Assembly: GCF_006345805.1 (NCBI RefSeq)
Contig: NC_043003.1
Location: 27,156,001-27,220,000 of the forward strand
DNA: 64,000 nt
Reading direction: 5' to 3'
Origin: Octopus sinensis
Taxonomy: Eukaryota
In this document: one piece after another, positions 66-60,876 of the stretch
Layout: each line of letters begins with the position of its first letter
Numbering within the stretch: position 1 is the first letter of the stretch
The notes under the pieces: model-generated
Databases searched by the model: none
Seen by the model: the letters and a program-made list of their open reading frames with translations, nothing else
What the model was told of the DNA's origin: nothing
Made by a program: the position numbers and the translations under genes

Positions 66-105
66 AGTCTTTTACGTTTCGAACCTACGCTCTTCGACAG
101 AAAGA
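66..105 (-). ncRNA. Degenerate hammerhead ribozyme motif in a PLE-type terminal remnant
   Basis: Minus strand reads tcttt CTGTCGA A GAG-cgtagg-TTC GAAAC GTA aaaga. Core has A6>U. Stem I tcttt/aaaga. Confidence 0.45.
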
Positions 106-332
106 TACACAGAAAAAAAAATAAGGAGAGAAACAAGGAGAGAGAAAAATGCGTGTAGGAGCTAACGATCTATCATGACGTGTATGTGTGTGTATATATA
201 TATATACACATACATATATATGTGGTTATATAAGATTATATATATACATACATACATACATACACGCATATATAATCATATATGCATAGATTTGTGTGTG
301 TGTGTGCGTGCTCGCCTGTGTATGTGTATATA

Positions 333-545
333 CAAGGGAGCGAGGAAAAGTCCCTGGCTTTGGGTAAAAGGAAATACTGGAGAATCAGTTATGATTTTAT
401 TAAACATAATCCCCTCTCATATTCACACGCTTATTGCAGCGTCTCTCAGTTTTTCCAATCCCTGTAAAAGAACTCGAAAGGTTAGGTCTTCAAACATACC
501 TTTCTCTAGACTTTTCAAGCCAGGACCTTTTCATCACCCCCATTG
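333..545. mobile_element. Tc1/mariner-type MITE (~213 bp)
   Basis: Imperfect 28-bp TIRs caagggagcgaggaaaagtccctggctt / rc caatggggtgatgaaaaggtcctggctt, flanked by TA on both sides (331-332, 546-547). Confidence 0.65.
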
Positions 546-764
546 TATAATGTATGTTTTTATTCATAATTGTTATATATAAAATTCAGCGAATCATTAA
601 ACAGAAGGATTGTCAGTGCTTTACAATAGACTGAAACAGGTTGGAAACTCCTTCGAAGTAGCCTTCATCAGATTGCCTATGAAGGTTACATAGCTGAAAC
701 TTCGACGGAACTGTTATAAGTTTTGCTCGTGAATATAATTTAAGCATGTAACTCTCATTAAATT

Positions 765-1023
765 GAAATTAACGTGCAAGAGGCTGAGCACTCCGCAGAC
801 ACGTGTACCCATTACGTAGTTCTCAGGGAGATTCAGCGTCACACAGAGTGTGATAAGGCTGGCCCTTTTGAAATACAGGTACTACACTGTTTTGCCAGCT
901 GAGTGGACTGGATCAACGGAAAATTAAGTATCTTCCTCAAAGACACATCACGCGGCCGGGAATTGAACTTACGTCCTTGCGATCGTAAGCTGAATACCCT
1001 AACCACTAAGCCACGCGCCTTCA
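765..1023 (-). mobile_element. tRNA-derived SINE (family B variant)
   Basis: rc head tgaaggcgcgtggcttagtggttaggg...gttcaattccc has A/B boxes. Body matches copies at 33790-34110 and 34232-34607. Confidence 0.8.
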
Positions 1024-1259
1024 CTCTGTTAAATATAATGCTTATTTATATTGTTTTGAATGAATCATACATTATCTCATAGCTTTGAGATTTCAATGAT
1101 TTGATCGTTTATTCTGAGAATGGCATTGTACTGTAGGTGCGAGAGGCCAGATATCGCCAGTTTGCATATAAAGCAGGTAGAATTTTAGGGTCGGATATAG
1201 CCGGTTTAAATACTAAAGAGTTAATGTATCACTATTTCGTATAAAAATATGCACAAAAT

Positions 1260-1760
1260 CAAACTTTACAGGTCTCTTCTTAACCTGAAGGAGCGTCAGT
1301 GATATTCACTGCTTCTCCTGTCATATCTCTGCTTGGTTCCGGTTGAATTTTATGTTCATTGTTTTTCTCTCGGTTACTCTCTTCTAATGTCGGAGTTTCT
1401 CACTGACAACTTTTAGTTCTTGCATAAAGATGAACAGTTTGTGAGTGTCCTCTTTTTGCTGCCTCCAAACATTACTTCTTCACTTTTTGTTGGTGAGACG
1501 TATTGTGGTTTGTTTGTTTGCACGCAATGAGCATCATCATATGGCTGATGGTCTTTCATAAATCAGCCATCTTTTTTCTCTATCTTCAAAACCCATGATG
1601 ATACTTTCTTTGTTGTTTCGGTTTTGTTCACCTTTTGAATGTCGTTCATGTATTGCTTTGCAGTAGTAGACAGGGCATATAGACAGGCGTTAATCTGCCA
1701 GAATAAGAATTCCTTACACTACTGTAAATACTCCTCTCTCCAATTTGTCAACAGCTTTTA
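1260..1760 (-). pseudogene. Degenerate LINE fragment (probably 5' region of an R4/Dong-like ORF)
   Basis: A-rich minus strand with coding-like stretches such as WQINACLYALSTTAKQYM. Broken by stops. Confidence 0.35.
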
Positions 1761-2352
1761 ATACTGTATCTGGACGGGGGGGTAAATTATTTTTTTACTT
1801 ACTCTAGTGGAGAAAACTTTCTCTTCGAGAAAGTACTTCCAAGCCAAAGTTACAATTTCTCAGAAAATTTCAGTAAGAGCAGATTTCACCAATATTATTA
1901 CTACGACAATAATCATTGCGATTATGCCTACTGTTTGCCATAATCGTAGTAGGGGGACAGTGGTCAGTTACTTTAGCCGGCTCGGCAATAAGAGATCGAT
2001 AGAATAAGTACCAGGCTTTAAAAAAAACAGTAAGTACTGGGGTTGATATGTTCGACTATAATATTACGACTCAGCAAGCAGTCTCATGACGTGAAAAAGT
2101 ACACTCTGAACAGCAACAAAGAGTAATCTTAGTACTCCAACAAATGCGCTAATGTTGAAGAGCGCGAGAGTTTGATCGGAAATTTGGATTTAGAGAAACA
2201 TAATGGGGGTTTGTACTTCAATATATACATGGAATGCTATGCATACGCGCACACACTTACATGCCCCGCCACACGCACGCACACAACACACACACAACAC
2301 ACACAAATATCTAAATTTGTAATCATGAATTCCTTTTCTTTTTACATTTCAG

Positions 2353-2397
2353 TTGCTGAAGCCATTTCTGTTTTCTCTGACGATTCCCTTGCGCCAA
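2353..2397 (+). CDS. Candidate 45-bp micro-exon of an unidentified host gene
   Basis: Acceptor tccttttcttttacatttcag and donor gtaagt, in a non-repeat island. Open in phase 1 (AEAISVFSDDSLAP) and phase 0 (LLKPFLFSLTIPLRQ). Confidence 0.5.
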
Positions 2398-58133: not shown

Positions 58134-58137
58134 ATTA

Positions 58138-59071
58138 TATGTCTACAAGAAAAAACTCTCATCTCTCGAATTTAAGATAGAACTATATATTTTCATAATT
58201 ATACAAGATTCTGCTATGCATGAAAGACAAGTTCTATTGCTAATCCTAAAGAAGGAGCGGAAGAAATAATATTCCAAAGAATTGAGAAATTTATGTTATC
58301 TCTTTTTAGTTGCCAGACCTCTTTTGAAAGGGTGGTACTATTTTCTTTTCGAGGGTCATTGAAAGATGATTTATGGTTATTCAATCGGAATTTAAAAGTG
58401 CTCTGTGTACAACTTATATAATTAAACTTGGAGAAATCATGGGTTATAACAGTAGCTTTATATACTACATTTTTCTTTTTACAGTTACCTTTAACCTCAC
58501 AGGTATTTGGTTTTCTACAGTTACAATTATTACTAATATTAGGACATTCTATTGTTATGTGTATATGTATTAATGGAGATGGGGTAATGTGATTATGAGA
58601 GTTGTTGTTATTAGATACGGAGCTATTGGAATAATTGGGGTAAATATTTGTAGTAGAGGAAGTTAATTCGTTGTAGCAATGGTTTAATCTTCTATTGTTA
58701 AAAGAGGAAATAATCCTAAATAGGTTAGGAGAAACGGAAAAACCAAATCTAATAATTTTGTTATCAAATATTTTAGCATTTCTAGAGTTACTAAAGTTTA
58801 ATTTCATAATGGATCGAACAGATTTGATAAAATTAGACTTTAAGTGTTTAGCAAAAGGAAATATAAACCAAATTATGATATTGTTGCTTTTCTTATTGGT
58901 GTGGTGGTTTGTATTAGGTAGGTTACCTATTCGAATATATGGTATAGGTTTCTTTTTACTTCTAATATTATTATTTCTAACATTATTAAAATTGGTTACG
59001 TAGTTATGTAAGTTATTGATAGGATGTGACGAAATAGGAGAGGATTCGTTTGCAAAGTGATTTTGTTTCAT
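58138..59071 (-). pseudogene. Second-lineage PLE C-terminal fragment (GIY-YIG)
   Basis: ORF 58214-59071: CNCRKPNTCEVKGNC..NVVYKATV...YISCT..TFKFRLNNHKSSF...TTLSKEVWQLK...ILWNII. LNSRDE..CRH remnant downstream. Confidence 0.8.
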
Positions 59072-59506
59072 GTTACAATTTATATAAATTTTTTCTCCTA
59101 ATTATTGTGCCTATTAGGTATATCATTGAAAATATTATTGAGAGAATTAAGTTGCATGTATGCATAAATATGTATGTGTATGTATACATATACTTATATA
59201 TGTGTATATTTATATATATATGTATATATATATAAAAATTTAGCAATTAAGGACAACTACTTAATAAGGAAAACTTAACAAGAAATTGTCAGGTAGATAG
59301 CGTAAAAACCTCATAAGAGAAAAAATTTCGAAAATAATTATTTCTTATTGAACATATTAATTTATATATAGAGGGCATTATACATACATGCCAGAAGGCA
59401 TTATACATACATGCCAAACGCTAAGAGGACAATTAGTCATTTCTACCAAAAATATTACTAATCCCACCGAATGCAATTTTTCAAAGTAAGACATTTAAAA
59501 AAATAT

Positions 59507-59554
59507 AGACCTGTATCACAGTGATTTCATACTTACGTACTCATCAGCAGGCCT
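59507..59554 (-). ncRNA. Type I hammerhead (left arm)
   Basis: Exact rc of 59868-59915. Confidence 0.9.
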
Positions 59555-59867
59555 GAATGTATTATAAATAAACAACGACCCTGCCCCGCTTAAGCCGATC
59601 AGCTAACTGTTCAACATCAACGAAGCACATGGGTGAGTTTACATATATTACATCCGGATAAATGGCAAACTTTTACGAATTGCATTTCGGGAGAGGAAAA
59701 GTTTTTTCGGAATAAAAATTTAGCAATTAAGGACAACTACTTAATGTAAAAGTTTGCCATTTATCCGGATGTAATATATGTAAACTCACCCATGTGCTTC
59801 GTTGATGTTGAACAGTTAGCTGATCGGCTTAAGCGGGGCAGGGTCGTTGTTTATTTATAATACATTC

Positions 59868-59915
59868 AGGCCTGCTGATGAGTACGTAAGTATGAAATCA
59901 CTGTGATACAGGTCT
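59868..59915 (+). ncRNA. Type I hammerhead (right arm)
   Basis: aggcctg CTGATGA GTAC-gtaa-GTAT GAAA TCAC-t-GTGA TA caggtct. Canonical core, 7-bp stem I, AUA site. Confidence 0.9.
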
Positions 59916-60663
59916 ATATTTTTTTAAATGTCTTACTTTGAAAAATTGCATTCGGTGGGATTAGTAATATTTTTGGTAGAAATGACTAATTGTCCCTCTT
60001 AGCGTTTGGCATGTATGTATAATGCTTTCTGGCATGTATGTATAATGCCCTCTATATATAAATGTATATATATATATATATATATATATATATATCTTGT
60101 TGTGTATATATATATGTTGTATATATATGTGCGTGTGTATATATATATGCGTATATGTATATATATATATACATGCATATATACATATATGTGTATGTAT
60201 ATATTTATATGTGTATGTGTATATATGTATACATATATATATATATATATGTGTATATATATGTGTGTATGTTTATATATATGTGTGTGTGTACATATAT
60301 AAATATATATGTGTGTATATATATATATATATGTGTGTGTGTGTGCATATATATATATATCTGTATATATATATACATTTCTTGTTTTCTTTAAATTTTG
60401 ATTTTTGATAAACCCATGTTTATCCTTGTCTTTACCTATAACTTATCAACTTAATATGTTTGTATATGTATGCACATGATTATATTTAGGTAGTGTAATG
60501 GATACTTCTATCCCTTACACGGTTATTTTAACTTCTAACTCAACTACCCTATACACATATATATGTATATATATATATATATATATGTATATATATATAT
60601 ATATATATATATATATATATATATATATAATATATATATATATATATATATACCGGTAGTAAA

Positions 60664-60876
60664 CACATAAATGTGAAACAAGGAGGAAAAAAGAGTACTC
60701 AAATACCAGTGGTAGAGTAATATGCTTTATTTAAAGCAGTAGAAAATTCAACAAAACCTGTTACTCTGAGTTTCACGTTCCCGTTCATCGGACAGTTTTT
60801 GCTAGAATAGAATAGAACGGGAATGTGAAACTCAGAGTAACAGGTTTTGTTGAATTTTCTGCTGCTTTAAATAAAG
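60664..60876. mobile_element. Hammerhead mini-element of the 45036 family, opposite orientation, with 62-bp inverted arms (60725-60786 / 60815-60876)
   Basis: Tail 60665-60724 is the rc of 45241-45300. Embedded in (TA)n. Confidence 0.88.
60758..60795 (-). ncRNA. Minimal type I hammerhead
   Basis: rc ctgt CCGATGA ACG-ggaa-CGT GAAAC TCAGA GTA acag. Confidence 0.8.

What the first reader, a model, noticed from the sequence alone, without database searches (positions are those of the whole stretch)
66..60876. Dense, strand-biased population of hammerhead ribozymes carried by non-coding (TA)n-inserting mini-elements
Seen: about 17 HHR-like motifs from at least six sequence families, mostly next to (TA)n. 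Well-formed solo copies (31133, 31546, 45659, 48371, 60758) are on the minus strand. Every plus-strand copy is mutated (6154, 15560, 26479, 46054/47408), truncated (60815) or preceded by its own antisense arm (45170, 57146, 59868). Established: PLE terminal repeats and animal retrozymes carry minimal type I HHRs. Inference: a family of non-autonomous, PLE-mobilised ribozyme elements whose orientation is filtered because the window is a + strand intron (see the micro-exon finding). The count is small, so the bias is suggestive only.
Basis: partly seen in the sequence, partly recalled or inferred. Interest (0 to 1): 0.75.

Follow-up and report, generated by a model that had tools for sequence, protein, structure and literature searches.

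The report
Ordinary Penelope-type hammerheads, no strand filter
The hammerhead-ribozyme motifs are real, sit at the tail ends of Penelope-type jumping genes and of non-coding repeats that those genes likely carry along, and show no antisense preference in the introns of 31 other genes, so this is a known kind of element, apart from one abundant family that keeps an unusual catalytic-core base of untested activity.

Summary
The motifs are real: 20 hammerhead-like motifs from about 11 families, in 13-14 independent insertions; 13 of 20 have (TA)n within 320 nt downstream. They are 3' ends of Penelope-like elements (PLEs), including an RT+GIY-YIG copy at 54112-57343, plus two young tandem non-coding retrozyme families (593 and 481 nt units). 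The strand-bias claim fails. Only two solo copies have a canonical core (both minus, P=0.5); the 'antisense arms' are symmetric PLE inverted insertions. In 1.585 Mb of introns from 31 genes, intact hammerheads were 14 sense to 7 antisense (17:12 after homology expansion), while AATAAA was depleted on the sense strand of the same introns, as expected. The host strand is unproven; base skew weakly favours +. Density is about 4-5 times the intron average, but patchy. Side result: one abundant family keeps a CUGUNGA core (A6U) in 21 of 21 copies while the free positions N7 and H17 vary; another mostly carries U4C. The scan found such retrozymes with PLE footprints before on other DNA of this genome. 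Verdict: new members of known kinds, low interest.

The parts
66..105 (-). Minimal type I hammerhead with CUGUCGA core (A6U); end of an abundant family (2566 first-look candidates), likely a PLE 3' end; the element runs past the window's left edge into (TA)n
6154..6180 (+). Degenerate motif (GAAA read as AAAA, no stem I or III); no relative in the sampled DNA
15560..15600 (+). Degenerate motif (CUGAUGA, stem II, GAAA; no proper stem III-UH or stem I); no relative in the sampled DNA
26479..26520 (+). Degenerate motif with two core changes; partial inverted copy at 26210-26283
30949..31497 (-). Near-monomer of a 593-nt tandem non-coding retrozyme between (TA)21 and (TA)8; intact type I hammerhead 31133-31233 with long stem II and palindromic stem III
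31515..31790 (-). Short element with intact type I hammerhead 31546-31634; its family shows compensatory base changes
45036..45299 (.). Head-to-head inverted insertion between (TA)n runs; identical motifs with cores at 45102(-) and 45174(+); member of the U4C family, here with CUGA
45622..48589 (.). Local tandem duplication holding three decayed minus motifs (cores 45768, 47122, 48480) and two identical atypical plus motifs (46061, 47415)
50641..50732 (-).
54112..57343 (-). 5'-truncated, frameshifted Penelope-like element: RT + CX4CxxC + GIY-YIG ORF (54321-55865; upstream piece 55799-56320), (TA)30 at its 3' end, followed by an inverted copy of its 3' 640 nt plus a ~46-nt tail and (TA)11; identical U3-A8 hammerheads at 54254(-) and 57152(+)
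59235..60064 (.). 481-nt-unit retrozyme insertion: minus monomer with tail plus inverted truncated arm; identical intact hammerheads at 59547(-) and 59875(+); family 99% identical, 1357 first-look candidates
60653..60881 (.). U4C-family insertion: minus motif (core CCGAUGA at 60791) plus inverted truncated copy from 60815, between long (TA)n runs

Best explanation
The window holds the 3' ends of several Penelope-like retroelement families and of non-coding tandem retrozymes likely mobilised by them; each carries a small type I hammerhead motif close to its 3' end, and intact copies show no antisense bias in host introns. Shown: an RT+GIY-YIG element with the hammerhead in its 3' UTR; (TA)n at the 3' ends; variable 5' truncation; inverted partial copies; two alternative 3' end points (tail present or absent); the same anatomy in the ORF-less 593- and 481-nt tandem families; no antisense excess in introns. 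From the literature: the PLE protein nicks AT-rich DNA on both strands and starts reverse transcription at two internal sites, which explains the tail (PMC11167929); single minimal hammerheads showed no detectable cleavage and dimers little (PMC4209133). Inferred: because the motif lies near the 3' end, even short truncated copies keep it, which gives the high count next to (TA)n; the 'antisense arm' is a by-product of inverted insertion; solo copies cleave too weakly, or too harmlessly, for selection to remove sense copies.
For: PLE ORF: RVT_1 E=3.8e-6 and GIY-YIG E=0.014, both below Pfam's cut-offs; motif, inverted arm, tail and TA flanks read directly; the U3-A8 hammerhead recurs in all 8 other loci fetched, with different 5' truncation points. 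Retrozyme arrays with one hammerhead per 593-nt or 481-nt unit, GC 32-35%, longest ATG ORF 33-39 aa. Fold under selection: 6 of 20 pairs with two-sided changes in 7 copies of the 31628 family; 0 of 500 shuffles reach the covariation score; slid controls 0.02-0.07 against 0.37. TA link: 14 of 21 intronic intact motifs against 21% of random sites. Orientation: 14:7 strict with 0-1 hits per shuffle; 17:12 intact and 26:24 mutated or partial; 42:36 solo pieces; 8 genes sense-heavy, 2 antisense-heavy, 3 tied. Positive control: AATAAA 1069 sense against 1348 antisense, P=1.5e-8.
Against: The intron sample is 1.585 Mb of 2.72 Gb, with gene spans inferred from co-linear Pfam exon hits, not from an annotation; nested genes could dilute a signal. 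The interval for the sense fraction (0.39-0.76) excludes a strong purge but not a mild one. The two young retrozyme families, the most likely to be active, were barely sampled (0 sense and 2 antisense pieces of the 593-nt family, none of the 481-nt family). No autonomous partner was identified for the retrozymes, and only 1 of 11 other fetched loci of the A6U family showed a PLE ORF upstream. No cleavage data exist for any motif.
Confidence: 0.85

Rival explanations
1. One reading: intact hammerheads cut the host pre-mRNA, so sense-strand copies are purged or silenced by an antisense arm, and the window is a + strand intron.
For: Both solo canonical copies are on the minus strand; four solo plus-strand motif types are degenerate; skew favours + over - about 34:1; Xenopus retrozymes are reported as depleted from introns (bioRxiv 10.64898/2026.07.22.740005, passages).
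Against: n=2 gives P=0.5; decayed copies also lie on the minus strand (45768, 47122, 48480, 50712); inverted pairs are symmetric; introns give 14:7 and 17:12, and a true sense fraction of 0.25 has P about 1e-4; sense copies include ones with a 4-5 bp stem III.
Confidence: 0.05
2. A filter exists but acts only on cleavage-competent young tandem retrozyme arrays, or removes them from genes in both orientations; single PLE ends are neutral.
For: Dimers are needed for cleavage (PMC4209133); the only 2 intronic pieces of the 593-nt family were antisense; strict motifs run at 13 per Mb in introns against 34 per Mb in the 264 kb around the window.
Against: The numbers are too small to test; the 264 kb region was chosen for its motifs and its transcription status is unknown; earlier scan notes (unchecked) describe sense-strand intronic arrays.
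Confidence: 0.15
3. Most motifs are chance matches in AT-rich repeats.
For: No Rfam hammerhead among the matches shown; folding z-scores are weak, -2.15 to +1.06 for 8 motifs; three plus motifs have no relatives in the sampled DNA.
Against: Shuffles give 0-1 strict hits per 1.585 Mb against 21 real; covariation; recurring families with hundreds to thousands of candidates.
Confidence: 0.02

Closest known systems
Minimal hammerheads (min-HHR) in pLTRs of metazoan Penelope-like elements (Cervera and de la Pena 2014, PMC4209133; parts 1-2 of 4 read)
   Same: Type I wiring, bulged nucleotide after A9, palindromic or absent stem III loop, U3-A8 variant, many heterogeneous families per genome, mostly single motifs from truncated PLEs, opposite-strand pairs 100-700 bp apart.
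   Different: Several families here have very long stem II insertions (55-70 nt); A6U and U4C cores are family-wide here and are not mentioned in the parts read.
C-terminal EN+ PLEs of the Neptune/Nematis type (Craig et al. 2021, PMC8557442; passages read)
   Same: RT followed by CX2-5CxxC and a GIY-YIG with CCHH; 5' truncation, inverted truncated copy, optional tail, (TA)n targets.
   Different: Clade not placed on a tree here; the window's copy is truncated and frameshifted; the PLE tail is ~46 nt and the retrozyme tails ~110 nt, against 30-40 bp in print.
Metazoan non-LTR retrozymes (Cervera and de la Pena 2020, PMC7229834, passages; Li, Clavereau and Pollet, bioRxiv 10.64898/2026.07.22.740005, part 1 of 5 and passages)
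   Same: Non-coding head-to-tail units of low GC with one type I hammerhead each; monomers, dimers and multimers; proposed PLE origin.
   Different: Units of 481 and 593 nt exceed the 150-450 bp given; (TA)n flanks and PLE-style inverted arms are clear here; circular RNA not tested.
Natural hammerhead core variants U4C and A6C (Perreault et al. 2011, PMC3088659; passages read)
   Same: Natural changes at core positions 4 and 6, described there as low in activity in vitro.
   Different: Here position 6 is U and the change is fixed across a family with thousands of candidate copies; A6U does not occur in that paper's text.

Membership tests
Type I / minimal hammerhead ribozyme | CUGANGA, GAAA and UH boxes joined by stems I-III in type I order | tested here: met
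   4 strict motifs in the window, 1 hit in 12 shuffles; met for 31227, 31628, 59547, 59875; the U3-A8 pair at 54254/57152 has an extra base next to stem I
Type I / minimal hammerhead ribozyme | Canonical core in the other motifs (100, 6154, 15560, 26479, 45768, 48480, 50712, 60791, 60815, 46061, 47415) | tested here: not met
   A6U, U4C, other substitutions or truncation
Type I / minimal hammerhead ribozyme | Compensatory changes in the stems | tested here: met
   31628 family, 7 copies: 6 of 20 pairs, covariation 0.367, 0 of 500 shuffles; relatedness of copies inflates such scores; other families not tested this way
Type I / minimal hammerhead ribozyme | Self-cleavage after UH as monomer or dimer | not testable with these tools
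   needs an in vitro assay
Penelope-like element (C-terminal EN+) | ORF with RT followed by GIY-YIG with CCHH | tested here: met
   54321-55865: RVT_1 E=3.8e-6, GIY-YIG E=0.014, both under the curated cut-offs; the Cys/His motifs were read in the translation
Penelope-like element (C-terminal EN+) | 5' truncation, inverted truncated copy, optional tail, microsatellite target, hammerhead near the 3' end | tested here: met
Neptune/Nematis clade | CX2-5CxxC linker and RT phylogeny | tested here: inconclusive
   CX4CxxC present upstream of GIY-YIG; no tree built
Non-LTR retrozyme | Non-coding tandem units, one type I hammerhead per unit, GC under 45% | tested here: met
   593-nt and 481-nt families; the window copies are about one unit each
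Non-LTR retrozyme | Expression as circular RNA | not tested
   only assembled contigs of guessed RNA runs were listed; no reads were laid
   14:7, 17:12 and 42:36 sense:antisense
   skew favours + weakly; exon candidates unverified; the nearest identified gene is on the minus strand and ends 13.5 kb away

The most novel reading that the evidence does not exclude
An abundant Penelope-type family (window copy at 66-105) has kept a hammerhead with U in place of the nearly invariant A6 through many sublineages: U6 in 21 of 21 copies, while only the two positions the consensus leaves free vary widely (N7: 7 C, 5 T, 5 A, 2 G; H17: 12 A, 5 U, 3 C, 1 G). A second young family mostly carries U4C. These would be natural, working core variants, cleaving as dimers or with help from the element's protein, or else the fold is kept for a role other than cleavage.
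Probability: 0.3. Interest if true: 0.55.

Novelty: new member of a known kind. Interest (0 to 1): 0.27.

Why it matters
As filed, it adds octopus-type members to known classes (PLE hammerheads, non-LTR retrozymes). The negative result has some use: sense-strand intronic hammerheads are tolerated, which fits weak monomer activity. I found no orientation test in print (searches found nothing relevant; one search found no 'orientation' or 'antisense' in the 2026 preprint). Had the filter been real, it would have been genomic evidence of cleavage in living cells. The A6U and U4C families offer a cheap test of whether PLE hammerheads need to cut at all.

Tried and rejected
Rfam scan: no hammerhead among the 150 of 239 matches shown. 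Repeat finder swamped by microsatellites; replaced by self-BLAST. PDB search with the PLE protein: nothing. RNA runs: no RNA holder on record was listed for 6200-12600, and no reads were laid, so expression and splicing stay open. Host gene: strong exon candidates right of the window proved to be a minus-strand carbohydrate sulfotransferase that ends before the window; the + strand candidate at 2353 had no protein match. PLE ORF orientation in introns was 2:2, too few to use. One seed (i20, 1273 BLAST hits, part of a very common repeat) was dropped from the homology counts but stays among the 14 sense motifs. Five window seeds whose core the script could not place gave no rows. Monomer folding did not separate active from inactive motifs. 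Lunse et al. 2017 on PLE hammerhead variants could not be read, so the A6U core may be described there or in supplements I did not see; the search for 'A6U' with 'hammerhead' returned one twister paper, seen as a listing only. The first alignment of the 31628 family had two wrong coordinates and was redone.
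Full report
Setting. The window is G000:C7:27156001-27220000 of a 2.72-Gb, AT- and microsatellite-rich genome. A flanking gene matches an Octopus vulgaris protein at 99% over its large exon, so the organism is an octopus or a close relative.

The observation. A strict type I descriptor finds four intact-core hammerheads (31227-, 31628-, 59547-, 59875+); 12 shuffles gave one hit in all. Reading the listed positions and aligning them to relatives gives 20 motifs from about 11 families in 13-14 independent insertions. 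13 of 20 have (TA)>=5 within 320 nt downstream. In introns elsewhere, 14 of 21 intact motifs have it within 400 nt against 21% of random sites, so the TA link is real. The fold is under selection: in 7 copies of the 31628 family, 6 of 20 pairs change on both sides and no shuffle of 500 reaches the covariation score (related copies inflate this measure). Density is about 4-5 times the intron average (P=0.011-0.043, window chosen after the fact), and the flanks hold 5 and 0 strict motifs per 100 kb.

45659 and 48371 are a local duplicate with a U4C change and a broken stem II not seen in other-locus copies. 60758 is U4C and has an inverted partner. The plus copies 'preceded by an antisense arm' are identical mirror images of minus copies: arms of 392+250 nt and 250 nt at 100%, and 210 nt at 98%. 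Either transcript strand would contain one ribozyme and one antisense arm. That leaves two solo canonical copies, both minus (sign test P=0.5).

What the elements are. 54112-57343 is a Penelope-like element: an RT plus GIY-YIG ORF on the minus strand (RVT_1 E=3.8e-6, GIY-YIG E=0.014, both under Pfam's cut-offs), with CX4CxxC and CCHH motifs in the translation, a U3-A8 hammerhead in the 3' UTR, (TA)30 at its end, and an inverted copy of its 3' 640 nt carrying a ~46-nt tail. The family has 1863 first-look candidates; all 8 other loci fetched keep the U3-A8 core and are truncated at different 5' points. This is the anatomy described for PLEs (PMC8557442, passages). The 31227 element is a near-monomer of a 593-nt tandem unit, and the 59547/59875 element belongs to a 481-nt tandem unit. 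Both have one hammerhead per unit, no ATG ORF above 39 aa, GC 32-35%, TA flanks, inverted partial arms and two alternative 3' ends. These meet the sequence definition of non-LTR retrozymes (PMC7229834, passages). Mobilisation by PLE proteins is inferred from the shared footprint and agrees with the 2026 preprint (part 1 and passages). The 60791 family appears as short TA-flanked pieces, often in inverted pairs. The 100 family showed a PLE endonuclease fragment upstream in 1 of 11 other loci.

Host strand. No exon in the window was verified. The only gene identified within 100 kb is a minus-strand carbohydrate sulfotransferase with coding exons at window coordinates 114981, 101904, 93851 and 82503-81547, plus a paralogous exon at 78425-77535; it ends 13.5 kb right of the window. 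Two in-frame + strand micro-exon candidates (2353, 45 nt; 14098, 24 nt) score 13-14 with my rough splice matrices, below two true exons of that gene (16.5 and 19); a minus candidate at 8030 scores as well. T-A skew in unique window sequence is +0.039, against +0.033 +/- 0.027 in 18 intron chunks, giving likelihoods of 14.4: 5.1: 0.42 for +, none and -.

Test of the filter. I took gene spans from co-linear exon hits of four Pfam families and the sulfotransferase, and fetched 1,585,501 nt from 31 genes, turned to the sense strand. The loose descriptor gave 23 sense and 12 antisense; the filtered one gave 14 and 7, with 0-1 hits in each of 8 shuffles. Homology expansion gave 79 copies: intact 17:12, mutated or partial 26:24 (Fisher P=0.64), solo intact 14:10. 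Whole element pieces gave 42:36 solo and 12:12 in inverted pairs; 8 genes were sense-heavy, 2 antisense-heavy and 3 tied. A true sense fraction of 0.25 has P about 1e-4. The same introns show the expected strand asymmetry, AATAAA 1069 sense against 1348 antisense (P=1.5e-8), so the set can reveal strand-specific effects. Next to the window, the upstream 100 kb has 4 intact plus copies and 1 minus, though its skew is near zero and it may not be transcribed. Limits: spans are inferred, a mild bias is not excluded, and young tandem retrozymes were barely sampled.

Mechanism. The PLE protein cuts AT-rich DNA on both strands and starts reverse transcription at two internal RNA sites, which accounts for the tail; ribozyme cleavage was not needed for insertion in vitro (PMC11167929, passages). 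Truncation from the 5' side would then leave short 3' pieces that nearly always include the hammerhead, and inverted second copies would give the palindromes (inference). A single minimal motif showed no detectable cleavage and dimers little (PMC4209133), which would explain why sense copies are tolerated (inference).

Side result. Two non-canonical cores are family traits, not decay. In the 60791 family, 14 of 18 pattern-matched copies read CCGANGA, 3 CTGANGA and 1 CCGACAA (most loci were picked by likeness to the window copy). In the 100 family, 21 of 21 copies with that position covered have U6, while N7 and H17 take several bases; of the 23 rows, one belonging to a related A6 family and one lacking the 5' core were left out. 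U4C and A6C are known natural low-activity variants (PMC3088659, passages). I did not find A6U, but the most relevant paper could not be read.

Verdict. Real motifs, known element classes, no orientation filter. Earlier scan notes on other DNA of this genome describe the same kinds of element. Novelty: new member of a known kind. Interest 0.27.

Noticed in passing
window 66-105 and 21 copies in introns and flanks: Family-wide CUGUNGA (A6U) hammerhead core with free N7 and H17; a related family has mostly CCGACGA or CTGACGA.
   Followed up: partly
window 46055-46118 and 47409-47472 (+); relatives in a sulfotransferase intron: Atypical motif whose CUGA..GA box seems to hold extra bases; may be an insertion variant and not decay.
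   Followed up: partly
L022:1547-2503 and L021/L022 (window coordinates 77535-82503, minus strand): Carbohydrate sulfotransferase gene with a duplicated large terminal exon (37% identical), possibly an alternative last exon or a tandem paralogue.
   Followed up: partly
window 2353-2397 and 14098-14121 (+), 8030 (-); 12-nt candidate 87.4 kb left of the window (-): Micro-exon candidates; the 12-nt minus one has the strongest splice signals in 264 kb and no assigned gene.
   Followed up: partly
window 58214-59101 (-): GIY-YIG-like ORF fragment (recognised by eye; no Pfam hit) of a second Penelope-type element next to the 481-nt retrozyme.
   Followed up: no
window 35606-36323, 37733-38894, 41413-42706, 42949-43365, 28248-28733: Several 5'-truncated non-LTR retrotransposon ends with a restriction-like endonuclease (R2/HERO-like, recalled) next to (AAT)n runs; repeated CTGANGA words at 36491, 37274, 37450, 39116 and 39296 in adjacent repeats were not tested for permuted hammerheads.
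   Followed up: no
window 4738-4964, 28883-29293, 49852-50300, 52991-53410, 57713-58141, 62292-62879, 63803-64000: Abundant SINE-like repeat with an internal microsatellite; the PLE at 54112 sits in the (TA)n of one such copy.
   Followed up: no
L002:587-750: A U4C-family relative directly abuts a 593-nt retrozyme across a (TA)10 run, showing how these elements pile into the same TA targets.
   Followed up: no
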